64,000 bases of DNA, taken from the NCBI GenBank assembly GCA_965153455.1, contig OZ234494.1, forward strand, positions 4,836,001 to 4,900,000, in the 5' to 3' direction. This DNA is from Sphagnum compactum. Taxonomy: Eukaryota. The position numbers and the translations under genes are program-made. The notes under the pieces were generated by a model. It was not told the origin of the DNA and ran no database searches. It worked only from the letters and a program-made list of their open reading frames with translations. Below, one piece after another: positions 2,750 to 37,500 of the stretch; the first letter of the stretch is position 1, and each line of letters begins with the position of its first letter.

Positions 2750-3170
2750 CGCTACCTAGTAAGTAAGGGATTAACTAGGTTAGGCCTATCTACCTCCCTA
2801 CCTACCCACCTTCCTATCTATGGGTTTACTTACCTACCTACCTAGTTATTTGGGATAGGGGTTATCAAAAGCTTACATGAGGGGGTTACAAAGGGCCATT
2901 TTAAAGACTACCTAAAGTTACCTAGGGATAATTTACAAGGTTACATAAAGCCTACCTAAGGGGTTATAAAGGGATTTTCTAAGTGATGGGGTACATAAGG
3001 GTTAGTTATGAGGTTATGTAAGGGCTATTTAAGAAGATTATCCAGAGTCTTCCTAAGTTAGGGGATATTTAGGAGGTGACTTATGGGGCTGCATGAGGAG
3101 CTATGAGGAGTTACCTCAAGGATACTTAAAGACTACATAGAAGATGACTTAAGGTAGGGGATATTTAAGT
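2750..3170. repeat. Degenerate low-complexity repeat (ctacct/ggggttac/taagg motifs), probably TE-derived
   Basis: Dense recurrence of tacctacc, gggttac and aagg motifs; no ORF. Confidence 0.5.
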
Positions 3171-3189: not shown

Positions 3190-4785
3190 ATTGGACACCT
3201 TCTGTGCAAGACACAGAACCTCATGGTGGCTCCTATGTGATCAAACTATATGATTTGGAAGGAAGTTTTTCTGCAGTCCCTGTGGGTGAGAGAGAGAAGC
3301 CATGGCAGTAGTTCTTTTCGGATCCTTCCCAATGGTGGGGTCACAGATCAGAGAAGGAAACTGAACATCAATCTTGTTAGAATTCACCTGTCTTGTTGAT
3401 GTCAATTTTGCTGCTCTCTCTTGATTGCTATCCTGTTGTGGGTCTAAACGTTGGCATAACTTCTTTCACATCCTTTGCACTGGTGGGATGATAGTAGTAG
3501 GCTGGAGAAGGTAAGTAGATGCAATATGCTGATGGAGAAGGTTGGCGCAGCTTTCTCCATTCTTATGATAACATTTATACCTGGTATGTGGATCCTGCAC
3601 GGCTGGTCAGCTTGACCTGGATCCTTGTTGTAGACAAATGAAAGGTACCCAGATTTCACACATAAGGACACAGCAGAAGCACTCTGGTTTGAGAGCTGAT
3701 GAAACCCACCATGGGTGGCAGCAGAGATGGCTGCAATGGCACTGGGCCCAGTGCAGAATTACACATTTTTCCATGGAATGAGAAGCTTACAACACATGTG
3801 AAGGGTGGGCAATCTGAGAAGGCAACCAGAAGAATGAGTCCCAACAAATTCACTGTGTGCAATAGCTTGATTGACATATATGCAAAATGTGGGAGCATTG
3901 AAGATGCTTGCTTGGACAGCTTTCAACAAGATGCTATCTTGAGATGTGGTCTCTTGGAATGCCATGGTATTGGGACGTGTAAAATGCGGGTAAGGGTAGA
4001 AGGCACTGGAGCAATTTCAACAAATGCAACAGGACAGTGTATGGCCAAACACTGTGACTTTTTTGGGGGGTGCTGAATGCATGTGCCAGCATGATTGCAC
4101 TTGAAGAGGGCAGATGTGTTCATGTGCAGACGTGCAGACAAAGTGATTTGGAGTCTGAGGTCTTTGTGGGGAGTAGCTTGGTTGACATTTATGTAACATG
4201 TAGGAGCATGGAGGATGCCATCTCAAGATGTGATAACTTGGACTGCCGTACTTGGAGGATGTGCCCCTGCATGGGCATGATAAGGACGCTCTTATACATT
4301 TTGAACAGTTGTGTAAGAAGGTTTGCAACCAAATGATATCACTTTAATTTGTCCTGTCAGCTTGTAGCCATTCAGGTTTGTTGGATGAAGACGTGTGCTT
4401 GTATGCTTCAATGGTCACCGAGTATATGATTTCTGCAAAATTGAAACATTACACCTTTATGGCTGACCTTCTTGGCTGTGCTGGCCATCTACAGGAGGCA
4501 GAGAATATGGTCATTACAATGCCCTGTAAACTAGATGTGGCAGCATGGGTGGCTTGCTTCACACTTGCAGAATTTGTGGTAATTTGGAGGTGGCAGATGC
4601 CATTGCCAAATGAATTCTTGAAATGGAGCCTGACAATGCTGTTGGGTATGTGTGTTGTCAAACATCTATGCTGGTGCTGGCAACAGGCTTCTCTGTGAGA
4701 ATTCTGAGCACAGAGAAAGGAAAAAAGATCTGAAGAAACAGCCAGGTTGCACTTGGATTGAGGTGAATAATGAGGCACACTGCAA
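3190..4785 (+). pseudogene. Decayed PLS-class PPR protein with E/E+ domain and an N-terminal OSB-type PDF motif
   Basis: Reading across stops and frameshifts: transit-peptide-like FCARHRTSWWLLCDQTI*FGRKFFCS; EKPWQ*FFSDPSQWWGHRSEK; RWHNFF-HPLHWWDDSSRLEK; GT-AG intron 3511-3633; TNERYPDFTHKDTAEALWFES**NPPWVAAEMAAM. PPR motifs follow: FPWNEKLTTHVKGGQSEKA, VCNSLIDIYAKCGSIEDA, SWNAMVLGRVKCG*G*KALEQFQQM, VTF-GVLNACASMIALEEGRCVH, VFVGSSLVDIYVTCRSMEDA, HYTFMADLLGCAGHLQEAENMV. E-domain EMEPDNAVGY...SNIYAGAG and KKQPGCTWIEVNNEAH end it. No DYW domain follows. Confidence 0.9.
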
Positions 4786-4930
4786 GGTCCAGGAGCAAAA
4801 CTAAGGTCCTCAGTGACTCCTGCACACTAAACAATGATTTCTATTACTTCTCGTATGTAACTTGTTGCTGGAGAATGGGTGATGATAATACTTCTGTTAT
4901 GGAACTTGCTGCTGGAGGATGGACTGGATG

Positions 4931-16347: not shown

Positions 16348-16817
16348 CTGTACATAAACACAACATTTGGAACACAATCAGTGCCTAGCCATGACAGGTA
16401 CAAGAGGTGCTTCTAAAGGAACTGAGAGGAAGGAGGTACAAAAAAGAGGTGTGGTTCTGAAGGAACTGGGAGGAAAAGAGTACCAGAACAAATAGGACTG
16501 CAGCTGAGAATTGAAGAATTGAAGAAAACAGGAGGAATCTAGCATTGTTTGACAAAGCAAACAGCAAGATCTGAGATGCATTTGTAAGAAATCATGACAA
16601 AACCCACACCTGATCTGCAGCAAAGCATAAGCAAACAGAAAAAAGTTTCACAAGAATTAGGTCATTAGGGCTGCTGTTGTTGTATTGGGTCCTTGCTTGT
16701 TCCTTGCTACCGTTTGTCCTCTTCTTGAGGTTTCTGCGTGACCCGCACAACAGAAAGAATTCTTCACAGACAGACCCACAAACAGATCCATAGACACAGA
16801 GAGACACAGAGTTAGAG

Positions 16818-18466
<1,649 letters not shown>

Positions 18467-20500: not shown

Positions 20501-22507
20501 TTATTTCATGGAGCGCAGGAACTGCATTTGTTTTCAGATCAGGTTCCTCTGCTGCTTTCTCTGTTTTCCGCAAGCGGCATCTCCAATTGGCATACTTAAA
20601 GCTTAGTTATATGATCAGTTTAACAACAGAAAAAGCTTGTAAGAAATGATTTGATCAAAGTTTTCTGCGAGCTAAGGAACTTACCAACGTGATGATGATG
20701 ATGATGGAATGATGCCGATGTTTTGTGAAACAAGCTATCTCCACAGTGCTGTTGTTGTTTCCTGCACAGCTTGCTAGTTCCGCAACAGAGAATTCTTCTC
20801 TCCACGTTGTCGTCGTTTTTGTGTTTGTTCAGTATCCCTGATCTTCTTCGCGGAAGAGACACACAGGTGGCACCGTCCACGCCCCTATTTCAGGCACCAG
20901 TTGTGCGAGAAAAGCGGTTCTATATGTCTTTCCGGAGCGTGCTGGCGGAGAGGCGCATTTCCATATTGGAAAAGACAGAAGTTGGCGCTTTCGAGAAATT
21001 TCAGCAGCTTTTGTTTTCTTGCGTGATTTCATGGCATACTACTGTGTGACAAAGACGAGCTATACGGTAAGCAATCGTATCACTTCCTCTCTTTGGCGTG
21101 CTTCGGCGAATGCCTGAGTAGTTTGTGCGGAAGTGCGCGTCCGGTAGAGAAGTTTGCTTGCAATATAAGCCAGGAAACGAGCCGAACCGTTTGAACTTTG
21201 AACGGATCAGCAGCTGATGTTGCGATTGAAGAATAGTGATTCCATCGGACTTGTTGCCGGGCAAAAAGTTTTGAAAGAATTTCAAGTTCCGGGGGAATCT
21301 TGTTCAGATCACAGGGAAGTGAAAATATATGTCGTATCTTTGCTGTCAAGAAGAAGAGCTTATAGCATTCGAAATTCCTGTGGCGTCCGTTGTTGTTGCT
21401 GCCTGCGACAGATTTCGAGCTTTTTCCGAGAATCTAGTATCGAGAGTGGAGTTTGGAGACTGTGCAACACAGACGAATGATAGCGTCCTCCCCCACAGGT
21501 TTGGCGCTAAAACCTACAACCTCATGAAGGAAACCTTGAACTGCAGATTGCTAGGTGATTATTTTTTCTCGGGGGATTGAGAAAGGGATTCCAGAGTTTT
21601 GTTGCCAGAAAGTAGCTGAAGGGACTCGATCAGCAGGAGTTCAGGGTCAAGCAGTTTTAGGCCAGGGAAAGATCTTGAAGAATGTGGTCAGGTTTTCTTT
21701 AGATTCACGAAGACTGAATTCACAAAGACTTTTTCACTTTTGAGATTTTTGCAACTAGTGGCACCACCAATGGGTTCTCAGTTTTATGTTCAGGATGGGA
21801 GAATTCAGTGGATTGTTGTGAGCAGAAGCTTGAATAAGTTGGAAACTCTGCAATTGTGTTAATCCAGGCTGTGCAAATTGCATTTGAGAGATTAGGTTTC
21901 AGGGTTTGAACAATTCAGTGCACTGTTTTGTTCTTAATGGTTGAAGGATATGGGTGATTGTCTCGTGGGAAGAAAACAATATGGAATTGTGGGTTTTGCT
22001 GCCAAAACCCCAAGTTGAAATCTATGTAGAGTTTCAATCTTTGTGTTCCAATATCATTCTGCTATGAAGATCACTGAGGAATGATCTCTTTGTGTTTTTG
22101 TTTATTTTTAGATTGACCAAGTCGCTCAAGAGGTGGAGTTTTGGGCTGGCAGTTTGGAGTTTCAACTCTCCAGGATATTAGGCAACATGTTGGGTGGAAT
22201 TTTTGGAGCGTTCAAGAAGCTCTTTCTGACACAGGCATGTGAAGCATTGTGAGAGCTTGGAGCATTTGATGTAAGAGCTTGGTTGCTTCAGAGACCTTGA
22301 GGAGATGGAGAGGGGATGCTCAGGGCAGGGATTGCCCGCCACCTTCCCTCCTTTGGCTGTTTGAACTTGAACAGACAACTGCATTGAGCTTGGCCATGGA
22401 GACCTAGAATTAGGTTGTGCACGGTCAAATTTCAACAAGATGTTGGTGGCAAGAGCTTGGTCAATTTGAGCGTTTTGGTTTTGAGGTTGCTGCAAAGGAC
22501 ACTGAGG

Positions 22508-25500
22508 ATGGAGGGAAAGGAGCAGCACATGCTTGGGGGGGCAATCGCCAACTACCTCTTCCTCTCGCAATTTGAGCTTATGCGTGCAACTTTGCTAAGC
22601 TTAGGTGAGCGGAATCCACAGGCAGCATGTGACATCTATCGCGCTGTAATCCTGCAGGTCTGGAAGCTCAAGGGGATTGTGTGGTCTGAAAGTGTGCCAT
22701 CCTCTGCACATTTGGCATGGATGTGTCTCCAAGAGCTTCATGCAATGGAGGAGAAACTTCTGGACAAGGCTGATGATGATCTGCAACAAGGGGGGGAGAC
22801 ATTGAACTATAGGTTGTCAAGAGACCATTGTTGGAGCTTTAATTGCCAGCCTGTTTATGACAGAATCGAGTTCCTTCTTTTAGTGGAATTTCTGAAGAGC
22901 TTTATACTTGAGAATGGGGAGGCGAATGCCGGGGACATCAAGCACAAGGGCTTTGTTGATTTAGGTAGGCAGAGGAGGAAGATGCATATTTTAAATGTGT
23001 CTGTTTCATAAGCTGGCAAGAGTAACAATTCTAAATGGGCTTGTTCATCCCTCCTGCTGCTTGTGATTAAAAAACAGAAGGACCCTCTAGAGTTCCTGAC
23101 TACTATGGGTTGCTTTGGGAGTTCTTTTGTGGCTGACCAAGTTCTAAGTCATGTGAGGGATTTGCATGTTGTTCCTTTTGCAATGTCTCTTGATTGCTAG
23201 CCAATGTCATGACTAAGTCTTCTTGTTGCTTCTGGTAATGCAACAGAAACTCAGGACACAGATTTTTGTGTCATGGTTTGCCCAATATTTTGGGCAGGTT
23301 ATTATTAACGTATCTACACCCACAGTCAGGAGCTGATGAAGTCAGTGGGGAGTCATGGCAGCTCATCACTGCTATTCATGGGGAAGATGATGGTCTGACA
23401 CTTTGTGAGCAACCTTCAGAAGGTTATGACCACATTCGTTGTTTTGTTACCTTCAATTGTTGTGGAGTTTCTTCATAATCTCATAGATATCTTCTTCTCC
23501 ACCTGTCTGGACTGAACTGTGATTTTGGGAGTATGAAACTGGGTATCCAGCATTTTCTTTGGGAACAGATGATGAAGGTGTGAACAGACCTTTGTCTCTG
23601 GATTGTTTGCCCTTTTGTTTATGGGCTTGGTGAAGTCAATTGCATCGTGAAGTAGCAAGAACTAATGGGGTGCATTTCATGTCATTTTGTGTGGAGTCTT
23701 GTAGGGGTGGGAGGAACAGAGGGAGATGAAGTAGAGGTTCTCTTTGGAGGTAAAGCAAGTGCAAATAGAACTGAAGACAATTCTGAAAATGTGAAAACAG
23801 TGGGTCTTCAACTTGTGGAGAAGATGATGGCAGCAGGTCTTGATCGGCTGAACAGAACACTCCAATTTGTCACAGGATTTGTATCAGAGGAGCAAGTTAA
23901 TAACACCGAGAGGGAGAGACAAACTGAAGAGAAGGATGCAGATAGAAAAGAGCACATTTCAGAGTCACTGCAAACACTTGGACATGGGAAGGAAACCCTG
24001 TCAGCAATGGAGAGAAAGTGGTTACGCTATGTGACACTTCGTCATCCTCAGCTTCTGAATGTGTTGTGTCAGAACATTTGGAGGCAACAGTGTAGCGCTG
24101 ATTTGGATTCACTGACTATGGTGTCTGATAGGTGCATCAATGGAGATAACATCAAAATGGCAGAAGAAGAAGACATGAATGGAGATCCAGTTGAAAAACT
24201 GAAGAGAGTTTCTAAGTGCCCTGAAGGCTTTGAGGTTAGACTCAAACTTTTTGCCAGCACCCTACTTCTTGTCACAATCTTGATGTGCAATTGAGATGTA
24301 GGATTGTGCTTGGTTGCAAACATCAAGCCAGCAGCTCAACAATCACACTTATAGCACTTTGTAATTGGTTATTAGGTTAAACAATCCCCTTAGGTGTTAC
24401 ACATCATTTTCAACTCATCACTAGCTGGATACCTTTGTGAGCAAGAAACCCAGCCATGCAAGAGAATTGTTGGGCTTCATGGCAGCTCAGCCCTCATGGA
24501 AAAGTGGTTGCTTTATATGCAGATGGGTTCTGTCATTCAGAGGGAAGTACAGCATGCACACCTCTGGCAAATTGGGGAGGACATGAAAGCAGGCCAGCTG
24601 GTCAAGGCAGCTCAGCACCTGCAGTACCTCCATGAAGATTTTGCACCTAGTGAAGCTGAATGCAGGTTCTTTGTGATTTCTTGGCTGGGTTCTCATTCAC
24701 AGTTTTGCAATGGTTGCAGTCTTGCATAAGTGTCATTTTGCATCACCACAACTGGCCTGTTTGTAGTGTTCCAATTGGTATTCTCAATGTGTCAACATGT
24801 ATCCTAATGTTACTCTGCTGTGTGATAATGTAAAGAAGGGCATCTGCTTTATTAATTTATCCATGTCTCAGAAGCCATTCAGGTGAAGAGTGTCACTCAC
24901 TCATAGTTGTTAGCAGATGTGGCATCCACTTTTCTCTTGGTCACAATTTGAGATATGCGGAGATATCAAGGTAAGCCAATTCCCTTCATTTTCAGGAAGA
25001 CAACTTTCTCAATACAATCCAGCCTTTCTCAGTCCTGTCTTTTTGTTTGGATGTTTATCCAGTGATGCAGTCACCTCCATCTTCAGGGAGACCAAATCCA
25101 AGGTGGGAGGGGAACATGATCATATCATGATGACCATACATGAATGCAGTCTTGCCTCTGGGAGCAGCCTGATCCCTAGGCTGGTGGAGGTATGCTGTTC
25201 ATGATCATATAGTTACTTGGCTCATCCGTGGTCAGCTGATGTGTTTGCATACACACATTGAGAAAGAGCATCAAGCTAATAATCTTGTTATAGAGCTCAC
25301 TACCATCTTATGGGCCTAGTCTCAAACCCCAGTTTTAGCCACCACCAATGAGGTAATTTAGCATGTTTGTTATCTAAAACTGTTAGAACCTTATGTCTTT
25401 GTGGGATGATAAGCACCTTGGAGAGGAAGCAACAGCATACTGTGTAACAATACCATGAAATAGAATGTGGACAGATCCTATGACCTTATTTTCTGAGGAT

Positions 25501-28500
25501 GGACACTTGTAGGTCAGAGATGTGGTGGAAGTACAGAAAGATGTTGGAAACTTTTTTGTCCCTACATTTATCTGGTCTATGGACAGATCTCTGATTTTTG
25601 TTGACAATGCTTGCATTTGAACTTGACCAGTCTGCACAGGACAACATACTTCGAGAAGAACTACAACAAACCAGAGTTTCTCCAGATGAACTTTATCCAC
25701 CAGCACTTGAGCACCTTCATCAACAACTTCAGCAGTTGCGCTTGGCTGATCAGTCTGCTTCAGAAGGCAGCTCACTAACAGAGGCCTTTGCAATTTCTAT
25801 GTACTTGAGGGAGGCCTTTCAACATGCACGTGTGAATGGAGCTCATATATTGGAGTCTGTGATGAAGGCTGCACTATCTTCCATCAAGGGTGGTCAGCTT
25901 CAAAGAGTGGCAGATGTGATGGCCCCCTATCCTCGACTAAAGCCTTTGGTGGCGGTAATGGGTTGGGATCTCTTAGCTGGCCAGACAAAGGAGAGGCGGC
26001 AGCTGATGGAGCTTCTCTGGATCAGAAGACACACAACTGAGGGACACATGCATGCAGATTCAACTGAGGAGGTTGACTTTCTTGGAGCATGGACCTGTTT
26101 GTCTCCATAATCTTTGCATTTTATCATTAGGGTGGGCCCAGATTGAGTGACAATGATGCTTAATAAGAAACCCAACAATGCAATAGGAGTAATTCCTCTT
26201 GGTTTCCTCTGATGCTTCTTTGTTGGCATTTTCTCTTTGTTCTCTGAGAATGTAACTTAATCAGCCAATTTATCCTGTACTTTACCTCCAAATATCTGCT
26301 CGTATGATGGTGCCCTGAACAACATTATCTCTACTGGCTTCCTTCTTGTTACGTGAAGTGTTACATTCATCTCTTTATAGTTCGGGGATGACTGCAGGGC
26401 TGACTATGAAGTTGGTGGATTTCAGATGTCGTGTGTGGAGCAGCTATGTGAGGAGCTATGCTATCGATTAGAGCTGGCTTCCTTTGTTGCACGTGTAAAT
26501 TCGGGAAAGAGTGGTCTAGCGAGCAACATTCAGATCTTCAGCAAGGGAAGCCAAGCCACAAATGAAAATGTTGATGGGGCACCAGCCAGCTCATTTGCTG
26601 CAAATCTTGTCCTTGAGCGCTTGGCCATGCATTCCCCTGTGCAGGTGAGCATCAGTTGGTCATATTTTCTCCATAGGAAAAAGATCTCAACATGTGCATC
26701 TGTACAATTGTCAAATTGCAAAACTCTGACATCAGTTCAAGTTTCGAATCCTCCATGAGATCTGTGTTGTCTCAATACCCGCCAGTATGGGTTATTCAAT
26801 GGCATCCTCATCCTTCACCCTTGGTGCCCAGGTCATAATGCCCTGACAGCAGGGACTTCCCCTATATGTACAAGCCACAAATGAAATAGAAGAGGTCCCA
26901 AGGAGGCACAGCCATCTCTGTTCAGTGATGCTTAAGGTACACCACCCAGATTTTTCTGGGCATCAGCTAGGTGTTAACTTTTGAAGCTCATGCAGGTTCA
27001 AGTACCAACAGGATAACAACTGGTGAATGCTGCAGAGTGTTGGTACCATAAAATAACTGGTTGATACCCAGTTTGACACCTGAGTCAATCATAATTACCA
27101 ACTCTGGTTAATGTCTGCAGTAATTGACAGCACCCATTACATCTCATTGTGATATTTGTAATTGAGGATGTGTTTGACATGTAGGTGATTTTTGACATGG
27201 TCCCAGACATTAAGCTGAGTGATGCTCTTAAGCTTGTGAAGTTGCAGCCCGCAGGCACATCCAATTCTGCTGCCAGGCGAAGGTTAGGCTCAAGCTCTTG
27301 ACAACCCACCTTCTACTGTACATCTTGAGTTTCCTTCTGCAACTGCATCATGTCTAACATGTGAAGAAAGTTGCTGGTTAAGATTTTACCTTCTCTTCCA
27401 ACTGACTTTCTGGCGGGCCTTATGACATCAAAGGCTTCTTGACCTGGAGCTCGTACACATGCATTTTGGGGTTCAAGATGCAGTATGTGCCTTGGCTCGT
27501 ATGGAGCTGGGTGCATCTGATGACTCGAAAGATGACGAGAGACAGAGGGAAGCAATCTATTTTCTGGAGCAGCTTCATGAGCATTTGAAAGCTATCACCA
27601 CTCCTTTTCGCCGGGTATGTCTGCCTTATGTTTTTGCACTAAGATATTATCTGTCAGTGACACCGACAGACCAGTAAAGGACTTGCTACATGTTTTCATT
27701 TTTTGCATCAGTGCATGTCCTGATATGGTGCCTCTTGTGCAGATTTGGATGATGGAGATTGTGGTTTCTCTTTTGCGTATGGAGGAAATAAATATTCAAC
27801 CACCTGCAGGCAAAGGATTATCTGAATCAGAAACAGTGGAGACTCTTGAAGAGCATCCAGATGTTTCAGCAACATCTCAGAAATCTGAGCAGCCAACAGC
27901 TGTAGCATTTGTTAGCAACATTCTCAAGATGCTTTCTCAGTGCATGCCAGTTGCTAGGCTAGATTTTGAAGCAAGTGACTGGACAAGTGATTCAAACAAA
28001 TCAGGCGGCCTTCAAACCTTTGGATTCCCAGGAAGAGCAGCAAAGAAGACTTGGATGCAGAAAGTTGAACGTCTCCAGAGCTTCATAGATGAATGGGAAT
28101 GGCGCCTTGGGGTTTTGCAGCACCTGTCCACATCTTCACAGCAGCCATGGCAATGGAGGGAAGCCCTAGCAGTCCTTCATGCATCTCCAGCAACTTTGCT
28201 CAACATGTATGTTCTGCACACTCTGCCTAGTTTAATTTCTCTTTGAAGGACTGGATTCAACAAACATTGAACTCTGCTGACTTCAAGGAGCTGTTGATTT
28301 TTTGACCATGTCCTTGTGTAATCTCTTAGCAGTCTCCTATCTGGAATGTTTATGTGCTCTCTTCATTTATTCTTTGTCATGGAGAACATGTGGAAGTGAT
28401 GCTGATCCTCATGAGGTTGCTGATACAGGTGTGTACAGCGGAACCAATATGATTTGGGAGCAGTGGCAGTGAATCGCTTCGGATTGTCTCCTGAGGAAGC

Positions 28501-31500
28501 AGCTACCTTGCAGCTTGCTAAATGGGTTCACAGTGCTTTGACAAGAGCGTCAGTAGGTCCTCAACCTTCTAGTCCAACATTATGCTCCTTTTGTCACATG
28601 TAGGCTCATGTTGTTGCTTCTGAGATTCCTAAACAATCAGCTTGCATGGCTTACATGCCTCTCTCAACACTACCATTACTGTATTCAAGTGATATAGGCT
28701 GGATGACCATTGCTAGTGATTAACACTGTGTTGAATTGGTGTCATTAGGTGGATGATGGAGCATCTGGAGCTGCAAACAAGTCATTGAGCACCAAGGAGG
28801 ATCTTAAATTTTCTGCCCTTTGCAAGCCACTACCACCTCTTGCCAATGTAAAGCTTCATATCTCTCAGTGCTATGAGCTCACCACTTGTACATTTTGCTC
28901 ACATATCTTCACTCAATGTCCCAGGGGACATTCTCATGGAAGCATCTTTCTGGTCCTCAACTCAGTTCTTGGGCTGCTCTCCTCCTGAGAGTGTCTGCCA
29001 TGGTGGCCGTTCCTATGCATGTTAAGCACAGGTTCTGATCTTAAGGATGAAGGTATCAAATCTCAATGTCTTTAGGGTGTCAGGGACATTTCTGACTATG
29101 TTTGCTTTGGTGAAACATTGCAGGCGCTTCTCTGTATTGATGTTGCTGTTTCTTCTGTAAGTTCTGCTGACATGGCAAGGCAGCTTCTAGATCGGGTAAG
29201 AGCAGATGCAATTAGATGAAGTAGCAAGATTGGCTGGTTGACCAGCAAGTTCAGAGCTCTTTGGGTTGCATGTGCTTCTATCTTTGAAAAAGTTGTTTGT
29301 GCCTTGTGCGAATGCATATCCCACTCTTCTCAGTGGTCAGTAACATTTTGAGTGTTTCTAATCTTTAGATAATGACTGCAGGCACGTGCCTTTTTGTCCC
29401 AAATCTCAGCAAATAAAGGCCAAGGACTTGAGCAGCGTTTGGAGGCATGTATGGTCATGGTAGCAAAGCGTCTGGTGCTTCGTCTGCTTGCTATTCTAGA
29501 ACAGGTCCCTCTTCTATCTGTGTGGTTCTTGCTCTGTGTTGCCCTGTCCTATCTGGATTTTGGGTCTTATGGCCACAAACTTAGAGCAAGCTCAGTCTTT
29601 TGGAAGGGTTGTCCTTAAGGGGAATCTAATGCTAGTTTGACAAAGGTTGTAATGTCAATTACCACTCTGTGGCTTTCCCTGCCTTCTCTTGAGTGTTGGC
29701 CAAAACCATGACTGAGTCTTCCCATTACTTTTGGAAATGCGACAGAAACTCAGAATGCAGATTTTTGTATAAAATTTTGCCTGAGATTTGAGCACAATTA
29801 TATACACTCACTGTCCAGAGATGAAATCAGTGTGGAGTAATTGCAGTTATCACTGCCATTCACGATGAAGGTGATGGTCCAATACTTCGTGAGTGACACT
29901 CACAAGGTTATGACTGCACTCATCCTTGTTGTGTTTGTTTTGGTTGCTGGAACTGACACACTTTCAATGTGTTATTGTGGAGTCTTTGGCCCCCACTGTG
30001 ACAAGGATGCTGTTGCCCTATGGGTGAGAAGATGTATGGTTAGGCTTGTTGCACAGACATGATCTCATTTGTCTTTATGCTCACAGGATACAAGGAATAT
30101 GATGACACTGATATAATTTTCTTTTTGGCACCCTGGAATGATAAAGACAGTAAGACCTTGTTCTTGATCACTGATGGAACATGTAACCTAACACTGGATA
30201 GCTACTGTCATTTTGTCAGCAGAGAGGTGCATCTTTGCAAGCAGTGTTATCTGGTGCTGATATGGTATCAGAATCAGGAACAGACAGCTCACGGCAAGTA
30301 CTAAGGCAGCGGGCACTAGCCATACTGCAACAGACAATTGAGGATGCCAACAGTGGCAAGCGACAGTTTTTGAGTGGTATGTGTCCAGAGTTTGTTCTAC
30401 TCAGAATCATCTCTTGTTTGTTTTTGAGAAGGAAGATTTCTCCTTTGATCTTTCTTATGCAGCATATGGATGATGCAGGTAAACTTCACAACCTTGTGAA
30501 GGCCCTGGCAGATGAGGACAGTGATGACTGGTCAACAGGTCATGGAGAGAGAAGGCCATTACTTGGACCAGAGCATAGTATTGGTGTCGGGCTTGGGTTC
30601 CGTGCTTTTTCAAGACAGAGCTCAAAACATGCTCCTCTGTCAGCCAGTTCTGGATCAGGAGACATCTCAGGGGAGATGACTCTATCAGTGGCTACTAAAG
30701 GGACTGTGAAGCGGTTTCTTGGGTCATTGAGTAACAAGCCTATGGCATATCTCTCTGCCTTCATACTTTATATTGCCACTGTTGGTGATATTGTGGATGG
30801 TGTGGACACTACTCATGACTTCAACTTCTTCAAGCTTATCTATGAGCGGCCAAGTGATGTAAGGATATCCTGCCCCCTTGACAGGTTACTGATCTTACAT
30901 CAATGCTTCCCTTATTTCTGGGTTGTGCTGGTTATGCTATTAGAAACTGGTTCCCTTCTGTTTTGGGACAACTATTCTTGGGCTGAGGTGCTTTGTCATG
31001 AAAATCCCAAAACAATTCTGTATTTTTCACTGGGCCATGGAGCCTAGAGAGTGCCTCAGCTTGTCTCTTTTTCCTCTTTTGTTGTGTCTGGTCTTCTGTA
31101 TCTCTGCTTCTCCTCACAATACTGATCCCACAGATTCCATCAACAGCTGCATCTTTGAGATTAAGGTTGACTGTGGATCTTTATTGTTTTCAGGGCTTGG
31201 TTGCACATCTGTTTCCAACTCTGTTGTGTTGCTCATCATGTTATGCAGTTGTTGACAAGGCTGGTTTTTGAGCGAGGAAGTGCAGATGCTGCGGGAAAAG
31301 TTGCAGAGGTCATGGGAGCAGATTTGGTGCACCAGGTACTCTACTCTCCAAACCAAACATTACAGTATTGCCTTAGTGGGACATCACTAACCACCTTAGG
31401 GGAGTCTTGCATTGTAAGCTTGGCCAAAGTTTACATAGGTGTACAGAAGGGATGCTTTGGCACAGGACTTCAATTCAAAATGCAGGTGACATGAAGTTTT

Positions 31501-34500
31501 CCAGTTATGCACCAGTTGTGCTCACAAGTGGAATGTATTGCAGATCATCTCAGCTTGTGTACCCCCAGTCTACTCTCCCCCCTCTGGCAGGGGTTGGGTA
31601 TGCATCATCCCAACTCACAAGGTGCAATCACCTGCCAGTCAGCAGGGGGATGCACATGCTTCAACAGCATCTTCTCCAAATGAACAAGAGACACAATTGT
31701 ACCCCTTGCAGCTGGATGTTGTGAAGCACCTTGCCACATTGTCAGTAGTGCGTTCAGTTCTTGCCTGTGTCTTTGGCCAAAGTCACTTCATTGCAAGAGC
31801 CAAGAGTTCCCATGGTGCTGATATTGATGCAGATCACTCATTTTATGATTTTGCTTTGGAGCAGTCTGAACGGTGGGTGTTGCCTTCTGCCCAAGTCTTT
31901 TCCTTGTAACCACTGTCATTGATGCATATTTTGTTTAAGCTCTGGATTCAATGATCATTGTGATGAGCTACTGTGCTTGTGGGTTGCAGTTACCCACCAC
32001 TGAACAGGTGGATCCAACTAGAAGCAAACTCACAACATTTATCTGATTCAACAATGTTGTCTCCTCGGAAGCTTAACGAGGACAAGGAGAGCAAAGAAGA
32101 GGAAAGGGTGTCACTGAAGCGATCACGTCCACACGAAGAAGATTTGGACTCACTATCTGAAAACAAAGAGGAGGATGCATCATCAAGGTTGCCAAGCTCC
32201 ATGAGGACATGGAATTCCCAGTCACCTGGCTTAGATAAGCTAGAAGCTGTACCAACTCAGCCAAAGGCTGGCAAAGACCCAGACCTGAGTAGCTCGTACT
32301 TGCTCATGTTTGATTGGGAGAATGAAACCCCTTATGCAGAAGCTGTTCAAAGGTGGGATTGTACACACACATGATTTCATTAATCTATGTGTTGCACATG
32401 GTGAGGTAGGGAACTCTGAAGTTGAAGTCCAGGGAAATATGAACTTAGCAGATTGTTGTAATGTCACAACTAAATCAAAGTTGTAGCCATCTGAACATCA
32501 TGGGACTGGCTTCTGCAGGCTAACAGAGGAGGGGAAGCTGGTGGATGCATTGGCATTGGCTGACCGATGGTTGCAAGCTGGTGCGCCTGACTCTCTGCTC
32601 CAGTTACTAATTGAGAGAGGAGAGGAGAATGGATCCCAGTCTGCTGGCCAATGGAAGGGCAATGGTGGTAGTCACCTTTACAGCAGCAGTTGGCAGTACT
32701 GCATCCGCCTTCGTAACAAGACCTTGGCAGCCACTCTTGCTCTAAAGTATGTGTGTTTAGAATGATCTGGCTACCCACCTTAGACCTTCAGAATCACCTG
32801 AACAAGGACTAGGAAGTCAGTATGTGTGTTGTGGGGGTTTGTGGCTATTTTATACCCGATTCTTAGTTCATAATCCCTAGTTGCATGCTAGGTATTGCCT
32901 ATTACTGGTAACATGGGTGTAGTAAAGGTAACAGGCAAACATGCTATTCAAACTGTGGCCACTTAAGGGGTTCTGAGTTCCTGGAATGAATTGGTTCAAC
33001 TGAGTTCTGGTTTTGGGTCCAGAAGGTGTGCTCTTTCACAGCAAGGCAGTATCCTCAGCAGAGTAATGAGGTGCTACAATGCAAGATGTGTGGCAGGCAC
33101 TGGGATGGTCTTAATTGCAAGGAGCTCCTTGTGCAAACCCAGGACTATGTTTGTGGTGAAGTCTCTGTGGTGAATGTGGTTTGTTTTGCTTACCTGATTC
33201 TGATTGAGGCACCTTTTTGTGGGAAAAAATTGGCAGGTACTTGCAGCGGTGGGAACTTGATGCAGCAATTGATGTGCTTACCATGTGTAGCTGTCATTTA
33301 TCTTCCACAAATCCACTGCATCTTGAGGTTAAGAAACCCATTGTCTAATTTTGGTTTCCTGTAAGAAAATGTACATGGATTAGTCATTGGGACTTGAATG
33401 TCTTTGGTTGCTTCACTACATTCTCACCAGAGGTTTCAGATGATGGTTTCATGACATGGCCTCATGTGGTTTGCATACTTGACTACTTTTCCACAATCTT
33501 TGTAGCCACAGAACAACTGGATCAAGGATGCTTCCAAGATGGCATATCTCACAGGATGTGCATTGGATGTAGGTGGCACAGAAGAGACAATTGCTGCAGC
33601 AATACGGTCGCATTCTGCAGGCTGACAATCGGTTTACACATTGGCAAGAGGTACCTCTATGTACCCAATCAATGGTTGACAATGTCCTTGTCAAAGAGCA
33701 ATTTGTTTGTTTGCTCTTGACTTCTATGAGGGTGAATAACTTCTATGCTCTCAAACAAGCAGATTGTTGAGACCAGGGGTGTGAACAGGGTTGTTTACAT
33801 TAAAGAGCTAACAATTTTTAATCTGGTTGATGTCCAAACTGGTGTGCTTGTTAAAAGTATTGAGCCAATTGCTGGTTGTGTATTTGTCTATTGCAATTTT
33901 GAGATGCCTGAAACTGGTGGGTATCTGGAATTTTGGTACTGTGCAGAGGTTGAGAGCAGTTGTCTGTCCATATCCTGGACTGCTTCAAGGTTTTGAAGGT
34001 TGCTACACTAATGCCCCTACATTACATTGCTTTCTGCAGGTGGAATCACTTTGTCAAAGTGACCCTGAAGGGTTGGCTCTCCGATTAGCAGGAAAGGGAG
34101 CAGTATCAGCTGCACTTGATGTAGCTGAAACCTTCAAGCTATCTAGCGACCTGAGGAGAGAATTGCAAGGTCGACAGCTGGTCAAACTATTGACCACAGA
34201 CCCAATCAATGGTGGAGGACCTGCAGGAGGTTTACGCTTTCTTAATTCCTTGCTTCAACCAGAAGATGCATTGCCAGTGGCTATGGCAGCAATGGAGCAG
34301 CTTCCGAATCTTCAATCAAAACAGCTGCTGGTACTTCCTCATTGTCTAGGTGGATATAATGCAGAGAAAAGCCTTTGAAGTTGCATTTAGGAGTTGAGGG
34401 CCATGTATCTCATATTCCACTATGATCTACAGGTTCATTTCTTCCTGAAGCGACGGGTTGGCACTCTTTCAGAAGAGGAGCATGCAAGGCTTGATCAACT

Positions 34501-37500
34501 AGCTTTGGGCCTGCGTATGCTTGGGGCCCTCCCTTTACCATGGCAGCAGCGTTGTTCTGCACTGCATGAGCATCCCCGGTTGATCCTTGAAACCCTGTTG
34601 ATGGGTAAACAACTTCGGGCTGCCTCTCAGGTACTCTCAATCTGCATCTCCTTCATGTATATTTTTACTTAGCATCAAGCAAATGGCGTGGATGTGGATG
34701 ACCATTCTGCAGATGGGTTGGACCTAAACACACCTAGGTATATTGTAGGTGCCACTAACTTGAAGATAAAATGGTGATCTTCTAAACTGTGAGACCACAT
34801 AGGGGCCTTCGGCCTTGGGGGGAAGAATAGACAAACCAAGATGTCCGAAGTACAGCTGTTAAGAAGGTGTCCAATCTGAACAGAAGCTAGTAGTCCTGAA
34901 AGGGTTTGAAACATGCCATACTACTGTGAAGTTGCAGTGAACTTAGAATTAAGTTTAAATGTAGTAATCGTATTTCCTTCTGCTATACATCTTCCCCTTA
35001 AGGAAAATGTTGATAAGGTTCAACCTTTTACTGCATCACAAGGCAAAATTGGGAATTGTGGATTGCATCTGGAGCTGACACTTGCTAGCAATGTTTCCAG
35101 TGAGGATTCCCTGTCTCATGAAGAGATTGGTCTTTGTTGCAGTTGTTGCAAGCATTTCCCTCTCTGCAAGAAGATGATCTTGTGACAATCTATGCAGCCA
35201 AAGCTCTTAGTAGTAGCAATGCACCTTATGAGCGGAGAACCCCAGTAACAAGTACAGCCTCTGTCAAGCCTGTTGGCCATATTGTGCCCCCAGTGCGGTC
35301 CAACGTCAGCACTGGGTTGACATCACTTCCAAAGCGGGCCTTTTTATGGTCTCCACGTGACACAGGGAACAAAATTATAAGTCCAGACAGCAGCAGCAGA
35401 AAGAGAAAATCTGCTGGGACACTCCCACCTTTTCAGAAGGCGACATGGGAAGCATTGGCTGGTCTATCAGAAGAACCATCTGCTGTTCCAGCTACTGTTG
35501 AGAACTATGGACGGCCTTCCCCAACTGCAATGACAGAGGAGTGGGTGTTGACTGGAGACTTGCAAAAAGATGATGCTGTTCGTAGCTCACATTGCTATGA
35601 AAGTGCCCCTAACTTTGTTCTTTTCAAGGTGTGGATTGAGTGTAAAGACCCTAACATCCCCTGGTCTATATGTTCACATTTTGGTTGAATTTAGGGGGAG
35701 ATCCTTTCAATGCCACAGCAAATTGTCCCTGAACAAGTTTCAGATATTTGGGAGTCTGATTTTGATTGAACAATCTCCTGTTTGTGGGTTATGCTATGGA
35801 TTATGTTATTTCCTTTGGGTTTGACCATTTGTCAGTATTGTTCCATGCATTTCACACTGCTGTTCTACTATGTTTAAGGGAACAAAATTATACTGAAGCT
35901 CAAGATGATATTTGGAAGCTCCTGCAAGGATGTATTACTCTAAGCTATTGCTGTGGGTTTTTCACAGTCGCTGCTTGAGCTGTATTCTGGAGAAGCTATA
36001 GCAGCTAAGGCAGCTGTTGATCTGTGTATTGCACAAATAAAGCGAGACCTCTCTTCTGAACAACTTCCCCTTGATTCTTTCCATGAATCAGCTGAGCGAG
36101 CTTTTCATGCCACCAATGTTTTTGTAAAGGTGAGTCCTGTATACCAGCTTCGTAGGTTTATGTGTTTCAGTCTGGTTTGTCTGGTTTCAAAAGTTTGTGG
36201 TACAATGAACCAGACCACTGGGCATGTTAGGTGGTGCAATTTTCTCATCCATGTGAACATCAGTGCACAGTATAGGAGCACTAGATTATGCTTAACTGGT
36301 TGTCCCCATCCAGTCCAGGCTCTTACACATGCACAAGAACAATTACAGAAGCTTATGGGCAAATCAGGAAACTTATCAAGCAGTGCAGCAGTCAGAGAGG
36401 GGAGAAGAATTGGCAATGAAGAATATGCAAGCCAACTCAAAACTTCCACAACCACTCCTGGTGGTGCCTGTGGGGAAAAAACTGAAAGTAACATTCCTGA
36501 TCTATCTGCGGTTCTAGGACAAGCAGAACTCTGGTTGAATCGTGTGGAGCTTCTCCAAAGTTTGTTTGGGTCTTATTTCCCAGCATCACTTGATGACTTG
36601 CTTGATGAGGGGGCAGCAGAACGGCTTCGAGACCGGCTCATTGAGTATGAGCATTATAATCTGGCTAACGAAGCCTGTACAAAATGCGAGGTATTGACTG
36701 TTATTCCTTGACTTGACATTGTGATTTGAAGGGTTCTGTGGGTTGGTGTGTGAAGATGAAGACGACTGGACCTAAGTCAGATCATAAGCATGATTATTTG
36801 TCCCTCAACGCTTAGTGCTGCTGCTGCCTCTAATCAATTTCAGAGATGGATAATTTTCTGACTACTAGAGGGCAACTGGTTTCTCCGGTAATCCACTCAA
36901 AGTGGGACTGACCTGTTAGGGTGGCTACTGTACATGGTGAACAATTGAGTATGAACTTTTCACCACTCATATGGAGCCCAAGCAAACCCTACCCTTTTAT
37001 GAGCTTGTCTGAAATTCCTTCAAATTGGGTTGATAAGACACTGGATTACTGATTGCAGATTGATGCATTTCCTGTCTGGGAAGCGTGGGGCCATGCACTT
37101 CTTCGTATAGAGAACTATGCTCAGGCTCGTGTGAAATTTAAGTAAGCACAATCGGCATGCAACCTATGAGGATTTCGATTGAATCTGGATGCTTGAGAGT
37201 TAGGCTTTTGCTCTTCTTCCTGTGGGTTTTTACTTGTGTGAGAAGTTCACAGTTTTATATGTGTCCATTATTGGATGCTGATTCTTTTATGTGTGGCAGG
37301 CAGTGCCTCCGATTATACAAGAGTGATCCAGCCCCAGTTGTGCGAAAGATAGTTGATGCCATGGACACAGGCCCACCAGCTGACGTGTTTGCTGCTCGCT
37401 CCTTGTGAGCTTTTCTTTGACCTGAGGCAGTCCTGTTACAGTTAGCTGCACAATCACAAGGACTGCACACTGCCATGTACAGTACATCATTTCAGTGGGG

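What the first reader, a model, noticed from the sequence alone, without database searches (positions are those of the whole stretch)
3190..4785. OSB-type PDF ssDNA-binding motif fused N-terminally to a PLS-PPR/E editing-factor scaffold
Seen: splicing intron 3511-3633 yields W(H)NFF.HPLHWWDD..RLEK|TNERYPDFTHKDTAEALWFES..NPPWV, running straight into PLS PPR repeats and an E/E+ domain, behind a transit-peptide-like leader. Known: WxxFFxxPxxWWDxRxxKxxxRYPDFKHKDTGEALW...PxWV is the PDF motif that gives ssDNA binding to plant organellar OSB proteins. PLS-E/DYW PPRs are organellar C-to-U editing factors. Inference: the functional relatives of this pseudogene combine an ssDNA-binding module with an RNA-recognition/editing scaffold. 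That could tether editing factors to nucleoids, transcription bubbles or R-loops, or direct them to ssDNA. I am not aware of this architecture being functionally characterised. This copy is dead (stops, internal deletions, no DYW).
Basis: partly seen in the sequence, partly recalled or inferred. Interest (0 to 1): 0.78.

Follow-up and report, generated by a model that had tools for sequence, protein, structure and literature searches.

The report
Dead copy of PDF-PPR editing factor
This is a decayed copy of a moss gene family whose working members join a small DNA-binding motif, known from organelle genome-maintenance proteins, to the front of an RNA-editing enzyme, a combination that I could not find described in print.

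Summary
Window 3634-3717 encodes the second half of an OSB-type PDF motif. Two diverged first halves lie upstream, at 3279-3356 and 3452-3510. A GT-AG intron (3511-3633) sits where the family keeps its intron. A degenerate PLS-PPR array and E motif follow directly, ending at 4813. An HMM built only from seed-plant OSB PDF motifs finds the exon-2 half at E 2.2e-9 among 3330 window ORFs, and the spliced readings at 1e-20 and 2e-15. The copy is dead: 8 internal stops, 8 frame changes, deletions, no start, no leader, no DYW.

Intact PDF-PLS-PPR-E(-DYW) proteins exist in seven Sphagnum species, the liverwort Calypogeia fissa and the lycophyte Diphasiastrum complanatum. They occur as single ORFs on long genomic contigs. 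Matching contigs that lack the GT-AG segments look like spliced transcripts. The PDF part is under purifying selection (median dN/dS 0.16).

Nine full-text searches and passages of eight papers found no mention of a PDF-PPR fusion. The function of PDF in this context is inferred, not shown. The most likely role is a non-specific anchor on single-stranded nucleic acid just 5' of the PPR footprint.

The parts
3196..4823 (+). Whole pseudogene segment. It is multi-copy in the genome and sits between single-copy flanks.
   Evidence: Contig word depth is 300-25000 inside against about 46 in the flanks, in organisms A, B and C. Contigs of B and C bridge both borders, so the locus is orthologous.
3213..3278 (+). 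Remnant of the end of the N-terminal leader. The start codon and the transit-peptide part are missing.
   Evidence: tblastn aligns P0262 residues 5-52 to 3213-3356 at 60% identity. No relative aligns upstream of 3213.
3279..3356 (+). Exon-1 copy '1a': the PDF first half in the family-typical sequence. It has a TAG stop at 3309-3311 and G in place of the conserved D. It is followed by GA where the family's intron-bearing genes have GT.
   Evidence: Translation. Intact proteins align up to ..EK at 3356 and resume at 3634. OSB-HMM E is 3.1e-3 alone and 1.1e-20 when joined to exon 2. RNA of paralogues reads G at 3309 in 12 of 14 reads and A at 3340 in 32 of 32 reads on the main strand.
3452..3510 (+).
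   Evidence: DNA alignment of 3303-3408 with 3452-3576 scores 50, against 23.7 +/- 4.4 (maximum 43) in 200 shuffles. OSB-HMM E is 1.8e-15 when joined to exon 2.
3511..3633 (+). Phase-0 GT-AG intron of 123 nt, at the position in the motif (after ..EK) where the family keeps its intron.
   Evidence: GTAAGT at the start and AG at the end. 20 of 80 related metagenome loci have a 135-156 nt GT..AG segment at the same point. In 4 of 4 pairs tested, a second contig carries the same gene without that segment.
3634..3717 (+). Start of exon 2: the PDF second half, with two TGA stops at 3697-3702.
   Evidence: Translation. OSB-HMM E 2.2e-9. tblastn with 8 OSB-type proteins hits only here and at 3294-3356 in the whole window.
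3718..3764 (+). Conserved linker between the PDF and the first PPR motif.
   Evidence: It aligns with the family linker.
3750..4554 (+). Degenerate PLS-type PPR array, readable only by changing frame six times between 3750 and 4554. It has internal deletions of 8 and 34 residues in the first motifs relative to P0200.
   Evidence: tblastn chains. Frame segments and stops. Pfam PPR weak hits.
4554..4813 (+). Remnant of the last PPR motif and the E1/E2 motifs. The copy ends here, before any DYW domain.
   Evidence: Pfam E_motif 2.6e-7. Relatives align to 4813 and no further.

Best explanation
Window 3196-4823 is a dead, 5'- and 3'-truncated copy of a nuclear gene family that I call PDF-PPR here. 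Working members encode four parts in order. First comes an organelle-type leader. Then come one to three PDF motifs, the roughly 50-residue ssDNA-binding motif of plant OSB proteins. A conserved linker of about 14 residues follows. Last comes a PLS-class PPR array with E1/E2 motifs and usually a DYW cytidine deaminase.

Shown:
- the motif is homologous to OSB PDFs;
- the fusion is real;
- it occurs in Sphagnum, Calypogeia and Diphasiastrum;
- it is transcribed and spliced at a phase-0 intron inside the motif;
- it is under purifying selection;
- this copy cannot make protein.

Inferred (about 50%): in working members the PDF acts as a sequence-unspecific clamp on single-stranded nucleic acid. 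It is held rigidly at the N-terminal end of the PPR superhelix, so it would grip the transcript just 5' of the PPR footprint. That would add affinity or residence time for the editing factor. Target choice would stay with the PPR code and catalysis with DYW.
For: Identity of the motif:
- phmmer from the window peptide gives 184 hits at E<=1e-3 among 1.84 billion proteins. They include annotated OSB3 proteins with Pfam SSB domains.
- The OSB-only HMM hits the window as given above.
- 15 positions are conserved at 80% or more in both 109 OSB-type and 67 PPR-type PDF segments.

Reality of the fusion:
- Of the 150 listed hits, 18 are PDF+PPR.
- 75 clusters match the PDF-plus-junction region, and 72 of them have the full PDF.
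- 52 of 77 further PPR proteins carry a PDF, up to 3 per protein in Diphasiastrum.
- P0141 scores Pfam DYW_deaminase 2.3e-44, E_motif 3.7e-14 and PPR_2 1.1e-29, with nothing annotated over its PDF.
- Genomic contigs up to 149 kb hold PDF and PPR in one ORF of 744-975 aa.

Expression and splicing:
- L040, L020, L001 and L002 equal L078, L064, L003 and L065 minus GT..AG segments, at 99-100% identity.
- Poly-A RNA reads of the window's species lie on the family in sense orientation if the library is of the usual stranded kind.

Selection and origin:
- 19 loci with ORFs of at least 600 aa gave 171 pairs, 158 of them usable. Median dN/dS is 0.163, and all 158 are below 0.5.
- 30 of 35 PPR-type PDFs form one cluster (SH-aLRT 90). 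A tree that holds all 35 together is not rejected (p-AU 0.907).

Mechanism:
- Reviews state that the PDF motif of AtOSB1 is sufficient for ssDNA binding, and that OSB1/2 prefer ssDNA to dsDNA or RNA (passages of PMC6963530 and PMC4166229).
- The AF2 model of P0140 is confident through PDF, linker and first PPRs (pLDDT 83-97 over residues 41-120).
- PPR arrays are read with the last repeat at position -4 of the edited C (passage of PMC10482289). An N-terminal module would therefore lie 5' of the footprint.

Death of this copy: 8 internal stops, 8 frame changes, a mutated donor after 1a, no start and no DYW. Only 8 of 1002 laid RNA reads are at least 99% alike.
Against: - No binding, localisation or editing experiment exists for any PDF-PPR protein, so the role of the PDF is by analogy only.
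- The reviews say OSB proteins prefer ssDNA to RNA. That fits a DNA-directed role at least as well as an RNA clamp.
- The models gave no coordinates, so contact between the PDF and the RNA groove was not examined.
- The PDF fold has no match among solved structures (best Z 4.2; no Foldseek hit at E<=0.001), so structure gives no functional hint.
- Physcomitrium DYW factors edit in E. coli without most of their N-terminus (passage of PMC10482289). An N-terminal module is therefore not generally needed for editing.
- The taxon range rests on named database rows. Absence elsewhere was not tested.
- That the intron-less contigs are transcripts is inferred from their structure, not from their records.
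Confidence: 0.85

Rival explanations
1. DNA-directed role. The PDF keeps the OSB preference for ssDNA. It tethers the editing factor to the organellar nucleoid, to transcription bubbles or to R-loops, so that editing is coupled to transcription. The PDF does not touch the target RNA.
For: Reviews report that OSB1 and OSB2 prefer ssDNA over RNA and that the PDF motif is sufficient for ssDNA binding (passages). All 15 hallmark positions shared with OSB PDFs are kept in PPR-type PDFs.
Against: The linker to the first PPR is short, conserved and confidently modelled. This places the PDF in line with the RNA path rather than on a flexible tether. No localisation data exist.
Confidence: 0.25
2. The PDF in PPR proteins is not a nucleic-acid binder but a protein-contact or stabilising module. 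Examples would be an N-terminal cap of the PPR solenoid, a dimerisation surface, or a docking site for OSB or other PDF proteins.
For: The PDF is rich in conserved aromatic residues that could equally form a hydrophobic interface. The model is rigid across the PDF-PPR junction. PDFs occur in tandem arrays of up to 13 per protein in other contexts.
Against: The same conserved basic and aromatic positions as in the ssDNA-binding OSB motif are retained under purifying selection. No interaction was tested.
Confidence: 0.15
3. Chance juxtaposition or annotation artefact. An OSB gene fragment happens to lie next to an unrelated PPR pseudogene, and the 'fusion proteins' in databases are merged gene models.
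For: This copy is dead and rearranged. It has two first halves, and copy 1a is followed by three codons that resemble the start of exon 2. No Pfam model exists for PDF, so annotators could not check it.
Against: - Uninterrupted ORFs from PDF through the PPR array lie on long genomic contigs.
- The same junction sequence is found in three plant lineages.
- Intron-free contigs span the junction.
- No OB-fold remnant is found anywhere in the window with 8 OSB-type queries.
- The PDF has dN/dS 0.16.
Confidence: 0.02

Closest known systems
[quoted passage not shown]
   Same: They share the same PDF motif. 15 hallmark positions are conserved, hits are reciprocal, and both have organelle-type leaders. 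The predicted fold is the same in an OSB-type fragment and in a PDF-PPR fragment: helix, small beta element, helix.
   Different: OSBs have an OB/SSB-like domain in front and the PDFs at the C-terminal end, and they act on mitochondrial and plastid DNA recombination. Here there is no OB fold. The PDF is N-terminal and is followed by PPR, E and DYW.
PLS-class PPR-E/DYW RNA editing factors (for example Physcomitrium PPR56 and PPR65; synthetic PLS-DYW, PDB 9kfx and 5iww)
   Same: The PLS array, E1/E2 and DYW deaminase are the same (Pfam). The first PPRs of the model superpose on designer PLS-PPR structures: Z 15.3, rmsd 1.0, 90 residues for 5iww; Z 14.0 for 9kfx.
   Different: Described editing factors have only a leader before the array. 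The list of additional PPR domains for Physcomitrium names RRM, LAGLIDADG, SMR, NYN, CBS and SAP, but not PDF (passage of PMC9459714).
PPR proteins with an extra N-terminal RNA-binding domain (maize PPR4 / AtPPR4 with an RRM)
   Same: The logic is the same: an unspecific nucleic-acid-binding module sits ahead of a sequence-reading PPR tract (passage of PMC9459714).
   Different: PPR4 is P-class and acts in splicing, not editing. The RRM is a different fold and family.
MORF/RIP and ORRM cofactors of seed-plant editosomes
   Same: They are possible functional analogues: accessory modules that raise the RNA affinity of PLS-PPR editing factors (5iww is a PLS-PPR bound to MORF9).
   Different: They are separate proteins with unrelated folds. 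[quoted passage not shown] Its supplements were not seen.

Membership tests
PDF motif (as in OSB proteins) | Significant sequence match to bona fide OSB PDF motifs | tested here: met
   OSB-only HMM: 3634-3696 at E 2.2e-9, 1a joined to exon 2 at 1.1e-20, 1b joined to exon 2 at 1.8e-15. phmmer to annotated OSB3 proteins at 2.6e-17 and 5.3e-15.
PDF motif (as in OSB proteins) | Hallmark residues W, P, W, D, R, K, PDF, K, LW, P, WV | tested here: met
   14 of 15 (1a) and 15 of 15 (1b) of the positions conserved at 80% or more in both groups.
PDF motif (as in OSB proteins) | Binds single-stranded DNA | not testable with these tools
   Known only for AtOSB1 and AtOSB2, from review passages. No PDF-PPR protein has been assayed.
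OSB protein family | OB/SSB-like domain N-terminal of the PDF motifs | tested here: not met
   tblastn with 8 OSB-type proteins against the whole window at E<=10 hits only the PDF pieces. Intact PDF-PPR proteins show no SSB Pfam hit (P0141 and P0039). So this is not an OSB.
PLS-class PPR editing factors | Tandem P-L-S PPR motifs | tested here: met
   Present as a relic. Intact PLS-PPR proteins align over 3634-4813 (chains to E 4e-69). Pfam PPR is only 0.012 and 0.033 in single ORFs, below the cut-off.
PLS-class PPR editing factors | E1/E2 extension motifs | tested here: met
   Pfam E_motif 2.6e-7, 31.2 bits against a cut-off of 27.3.
PLS-class PPR editing factors | DYW cytidine deaminase domain | tested here: not met
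   Absent from this copy and from the whole window. Present in relatives: P0141 at 2.3e-44, and 33 of 70 plus 16 of 52 PDF-bearing relatives end in DYW.
PLS-class PPR editing factors | Open reading frame, start codon, organelle leader | tested here: not met
   8 internal stops, 8 frame changes, and no leader upstream of 3213. It is a pseudogene.
PDF-PPR fusion family (defined here) | PDF immediately N-terminal of the first PPR through the conserved linker | tested here: met
   The window linker 3718-3764 aligns with the family linker.
PDF-PPR fusion family (defined here) | Phase-0 intron after ..EK inside the PDF | tested here: met
   3511-3633 is GT..AG. 20 of 80 related loci have a 135-156 nt intron at the same place. 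The other loci lack it: they are transcript-like contigs or intron-less genomic paralogues.

The most novel reading that the evidence does not exclude
PDF-PPR-DYW proteins work at single-stranded DNA. The PDF would park the editing factor on the non-template strand of transcription bubbles or R-loops in the nucleoid, so that editing in these lineages is co-transcriptional. At the extreme, the DYW deaminase would also act on organellar ssDNA. In lineages without MORF-type helpers (recalled, not tested here) this would be a distinct, self-contained editosome design.
Probability: 0.12. Interest if true: 0.85.

Novelty: new variant of a known kind. Interest (0 to 1): 0.62.

Why it matters
Plant organellar C-to-U editing factors are described as leader, PLS-PPR array, E motifs and DYW domain. 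Extra nucleic-acid-binding modules are known only as separate cofactors or in P-class proteins.

Here, at least 16 Sphagnum fallax loci, 12 S. magellanicum loci and at least 10 Diphasiastrum loci (tallied by eye from the rows) carry a conserved, selected, expressed ssDNA-binding motif fused to the front of the array. No Pfam model covers the motif, so domain-based surveys cannot see it.

This gives a direct handle on two questions. One is how short PPR tracts reach enough affinity without MORF-type helpers. The other is whether editing is physically coupled to the nucleoid. It also offers a small portable module for engineered PPR editors, and it enlarges the known uses of the PDF motif beyond OSB proteins.

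The window's own copy has no function. Its value is as the pointer to the family.

Tried and rejected
- Whole-genome search: no genome is held for this window, so paralogues could not be counted in the genome itself.
- The first word-indexed search with the window peptide, at longer lengths, scored nothing among 122 candidates.
- ESM Atlas with P0141 residues 95-160 gave no usable hit.
- Earlier findings of this scan: nothing by place, by words or by sequence.
- Fold of the PDF alone (P0049 model, mean pLDDT 78.2): the best VIA match is Z 4.2 (2fzt), with none at Z>=5 among 48161 chains. Foldseek on PDB gave none at E<=0.001. This does not show the fold is new.
- Fold search with the P0140 model tested only the PPR part.
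- The original OSB paper (PMC1785405) is not held. What is said of it comes from review passages.
- Sequencing runs: no RNA holder was listed for the stretch. The poly-A RNA run that was laid gave reads mostly 90-95% alike (903 of 1002). They come from paralogues, so expression of this copy is neither shown nor excluded. No RNA joint across 3511-3633 was among the 15 joints shown, and 86 more were not shown.
- The alignment-based protein search was dominated by the PPR repeats, so its ranking says nothing about the PDF. The PDF content was counted afterwards.
- I first took 3357-3633 as 'the' intron and 1b as an intronic pseudo-exon. I then softened this. Copy 1b has the canonical donor and intron length, while 1a has the family-typical sequence. 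Which was the original exon 1 of this locus is left open.
- Supplementary files of papers were closed. Domain tables in the supplements of PMC13386178 and PMC13393729 could hold PDF-PPR rows that I could not see.
Full report
**1. What is in the window**

The window is plant nuclear DNA. It holds a GT34 glycosyltransferase ORF, an E2 exon and a large multi-exon gene, and G+C runs from 27 to 45%. The closest relatives of the region studied are Sphagnum proteins. From this I infer a peat-moss genome.

The pieces read as follows.
- Frame 1 of 3460-3510 reads LLSHPLHWWDDSSRLEK.
- 3511-3633 starts GTAAGT and ends AG. It is 123 nt long and keeps the frame.
- 3634-3717 reads TNERYPDFTHKDTAEALWFES**NPPWV.
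- A second, better first half lies upstream at 3279-3356: PVGEREKPWQ*FFSDPSQWWGHRSEK.
- The two first halves are diverged DNA duplicates. Their alignment scores 50, against 23.7 +/- 4.4 (maximum 43) in 200 shuffles.
The same mis-frame string recurs in database ORFs of relatives (P0003, P0025, P0045).

**2. Is it a PDF motif, beyond chance?**

Yes.
- phmmer with the read-through of 3460-3801 (stops as X) against 1.84 billion representative proteins gave 184 hits at E<=1e-3, and 21 at E<=1e-10.
- Named hits include 'protein OSB3, chloroplastic/mitochondrial' of Chenopodium quinoa (2.6e-17), Amborella (5.3e-15) and Morus (1.1e-8). These carry Pfam SSB domains.
- I built an HMM from 33 PDF segments of 7 seed-plant OSB-type proteins only, and searched all 3330 six-frame ORFs of the window.
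  - 3634-3696 scored E 2.2e-9 and 3312-3377 scored 3.1e-3. Nothing else was below 0.5.
  - The conceptual splice of 1a with exon 2 scored 1.1e-20 (70.7 bits). The splice of 1b with exon 2 scored 1.8e-15.
- 15 positions are conserved at 80% or more in both 109 OSB-type and 67 PPR-type PDF segments. The window keeps 14 of them (1a) or all 15 (1b).
- Pfam has no model over the motif.

**3. The PPR part and the state of the copy**

- Intact PLS-PPR proteins align from 3634 to 4813 in nine frame segments.
- Pfam finds an E motif at 2.6e-7, above its cut-off, in 4634-4804. It finds only sub-threshold PPR hits.
- Along the chain there are 8 internal stops and 8 frame changes.
- The first motifs have deletions of 8 and 34 residues relative to P0200.
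- Copy 1a holds a TAG and is followed by GA where relatives have the GT donor.
- No start codon or leader is present upstream of 3213.
- No DYW domain is found anywhere in the 64 kb.
- No OB-fold remnant is found with 8 OSB-type queries.

Contigs of public runs give a word depth of 300 to 25000 over 3196-4823, against about 46 in the flanks. The segment therefore belongs to a multi-copy family. Contigs of two other organisms bridge both borders, so the dead copy sits at an orthologous place in related species.

Of 1002 poly-A RNA reads laid, 903 are only 90-95% alike and 8 are at least 99% alike. They come from expressed paralogues. At 3309 and 3340 they carry the family's intact letters.

**4. 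Do working PDF-PPR genes exist?**

Yes, in number.
- Among the 150 listed hits, local searches gave five classes:
  - 42 with OB fold plus PDFs (OSB-like);
  - 27 multi-PDF proteins with neither OB nor PPR detected;
  - 18 with PDF plus PPR;
  - 42 short single-PDF pieces;
  - 21 partial pieces.
- A search with the PDF-plus-junction region (residues 95-185) of the 564-aa Sphagnum compactum protein P0141 returned 75 clusters. All have PPR Pfam domains.
  - 72 of the 75 have the complete PDF directly before the first PPR. 3 are N-terminally short models.
  - Of the 73 ids new in that search, 70 are recognised by the OSB-only HMM, and 33 of those 70 end in DYW.
- P0141 itself scores DYW_deaminase 2.3e-44, E_motif 3.7e-14 and PPR_2 1.1e-29.
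- Named sources are Sphagnum fallax, magellanicum, jensenii, troendelagicum, tenellum, compactum and balticum, the liverwort Calypogeia fissa and the lycophyte Diphasiastrum complanatum, on contigs of megabase to chromosome size.
- A further 52 of 77 PPR proteins carry PDFs, with up to three in tandem in Diphasiastrum.

**5. Gene structure, expression, selection**

- A scan of metagenome contigs found 477 confirmed stretches, of which 80 loci were kept.
- In 20 of the 80 loci, a GT..AG segment of 135-156 nt interrupts the motif exactly after ..EK, in phase 0. Uninterrupted ORFs of 649-1238 aa follow, many ending in DYW.
- In four of four pairs tested, another contig carries the same gene at 99-100% identity without this and other GT..AG segments: L040/L078, L020/L064, L001/L003, L002/L065. 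The simplest reading is spliced transcripts.
- Other loci on genomic contigs up to 149 kb have the motif uninterrupted and one ORF through PDF and PPR, for example L010, L014, L015 and L019. These are intron-less paralogues. They fit the retroposition-driven PPR expansion described in PMC13386178 (passage).
- The window's 3511-3633 is at the family's intron position and of similar length. Copy 1b therefore has the canonical structure, while copy 1a has the family-typical sequence. Copy 1a is followed by three codons that resemble the start of exon 2. Which half was the original exon 1 here is left open.
- Database ORFs that read through the intron at 54-75% identity (P0003, P0008, P0013, P0014, P0018, P0019) show that the arrangement with 1b and its intron exists in several other copies.
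- For 19 distinct loci with ORFs of at least 600 aa, pairwise Nei-Gojobori dN/dS over 62 PDF and linker codons has median 0.163 (171 pairs, 158 usable, all below 0.5). For the core motif it is 0.147.

**6. Origin**

In a quick maximum-likelihood tree of 206 PDF segments (63 columns, weak resolution), 30 of 35 PPR-type PDFs form one cluster (SH-aLRT 90). This cluster lies inside the land-plant OSB-type group and away from the multi-PDF group. Rows dropped beforehand were short proteins of unknown architecture and near-identical segments. A tree with all 35 held together is not rejected; it scored higher than the free quick search, with p-AU 0.907. One origin of the fusion is compatible with the data but not proven.

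**7. Structure**

- AlphaFold2 on P0140 (leader, PDF and 2.5 PPRs; 47-row alignment) gave mean pLDDT 84.6, with 83-97 across PDF, linker and first PPR. The elements are helix 40-55, short strands at 60-62 and 75-77, helix 93-101, then PPR helices.
- An OSB-type single-PDF fragment (P0049) gave the same order of elements, with mean pLDDT 78.2.
- The PPR part superposes on designer PLS-PPR structures: 5iww at Z 15.3, 9kfx at Z 14.0.
- The PDF alone has no convincing match: best Z 4.2, and no Foldseek hit at E<=0.001.

**8. How it most likely works**

Shown: an OSB-type PDF is fused, through a conserved and confidently modelled linker, to the N-terminal end of PLS-PPR-E-DYW proteins, and it is kept by selection.

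From the literature (passages only):
- The PDF motif of AtOSB1 suffices for ssDNA binding.
- OSB1 and OSB2 prefer ssDNA to dsDNA or RNA (PMC6963530, PMC4166229, PMC6451138).
- PPR arrays are aligned with their last repeat at position -4 of the edited C (PMC10482289).

Inference: the PDF lies over the nucleic acid just 5' of the PPR footprint. There it acts as an unspecific single-strand clamp that adds affinity (about 50%). Rivals are tethering to ssDNA of the nucleoid or to R-loops (about 25%) and a protein-contact or capping role (about 15%). None is tested.

**9. Known or new?**

Nine full-text searches were run.
- 'PDF motif' alone gave 5 papers. With 'pentatricopeptide' it gave 1 paper, and that one is unrelated to a fusion.
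- OSB + DYW + PPR gave 1 paper, a localisation survey seen only in the search listing; it is not about a fusion.
- The other searches were 'PDF motif' + OSB1 + single-stranded DNA; Sphagnum + DYW + RNA editing + pentatricopeptide; Sphagnum + pentatricopeptide; OSB1/OSB2/DYW; and PPR/DYW/N-terminal/lycophyte/Sphagnum.

None of them turned up a report of a PDF-PPR protein.

Passages read:
- The 2026 survey of editing-factor domain fusions has 0 occurrences of OSB, PDF or single-stranded (PMC13386178).
- The 2026 study of 182 OSB genes and their PDF domains has 0 occurrences of PPR or pentatricopeptide (PMC13393729).
- The Physcomitrium PPR overview lists RRM, LAGLIDADG, SMR, NYN, CBS and SAP as additional domains (PMC9459714).

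Supplements were closed, and subscription journals are not covered. 'Not in print' is therefore limited to these searches.

**10. Verdict**

The window feature is an ordinary dead gene copy. The family it points to is a real, conserved, expressed and apparently undescribed variant of the plant RNA-editing factor.

Noticed in passing
window 55733-57190 (-): A long ORF with Pfam Glyco_transf_34 (4.5e-41). It is probably a xyloglucan/galactomannan-type GT34 gene; that reading of the family is recalled.
   Followed up: partly
window 16794-17249 (+): An ORF holding the start of a ubiquitin-conjugating enzyme domain (UQ_con, 6.6e-4, below the cut-off). It looks like one exon of an E2 gene.
   Followed up: partly
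window 22300-38300 (+): A run of long ORFs on one strand that looks like a single large multi-exon gene. Five ORFs tried gave no Pfam hit at E<=0.001.
   Followed up: partly
window 48257-50010: An ORF with an RNA-binding-like stretch is followed by an RD/RE/RS-rich ORF (49485-49892, +). The antisense frame is H/P-rich. It resembles a U1-70K-type gene, from recall only.
   Followed up: no
window 2800-3150: Degenerate short-motif, low-complexity DNA (variants of GGTTAC/CTACCT) lies directly 5' of the pseudogene. Tandem Repeats Finder reported no array there.
   Followed up: partly
L001 713 / L003 2655-2785: In one PDF-PPR-DYW gene, the transcript-like contig skips a further 131 nt inside the PPR array. 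This shifts the frame and ends the ORF after 107 residues. It could be an unproductive splice form.
   Followed up: partly
L040 1-2109 / L078 19-3568: The transcript-like contig of another PDF-PPR-DYW gene is made of at least five further upstream blocks, so this gene has a multi-exon 5' part. The ORF is open for 226 residues before the PDF.
   Followed up: partly
L005, L009-L019 (metagenome contigs up to 149 kb): These are intron-less genomic paralogues of the family (the 'WWDCRPEK' group), found beside intron-bearing ones. This fits expansion by retroposition.
   Followed up: partly
P0002, P0004, P0005, P0006, P0009: Proteins made of 6-11 tandem PDF motifs with no OB fold or PPR detected. 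Only P0009, an unnamed JGI/IMG record, was looked up; the sources of the other four were not. The named Sanguina aurantia protein P0010 has an OB fold plus 5 PDFs and belongs to the OSB-like class. This may be a third architecture for the motif.
   Followed up: no
window 3357-3365: Copy 1a is followed by three codons (ETE) that align with the first codons of exon 2 in relatives. This hints that 1a stems from a processed, intron-less copy.
   Followed up: partly
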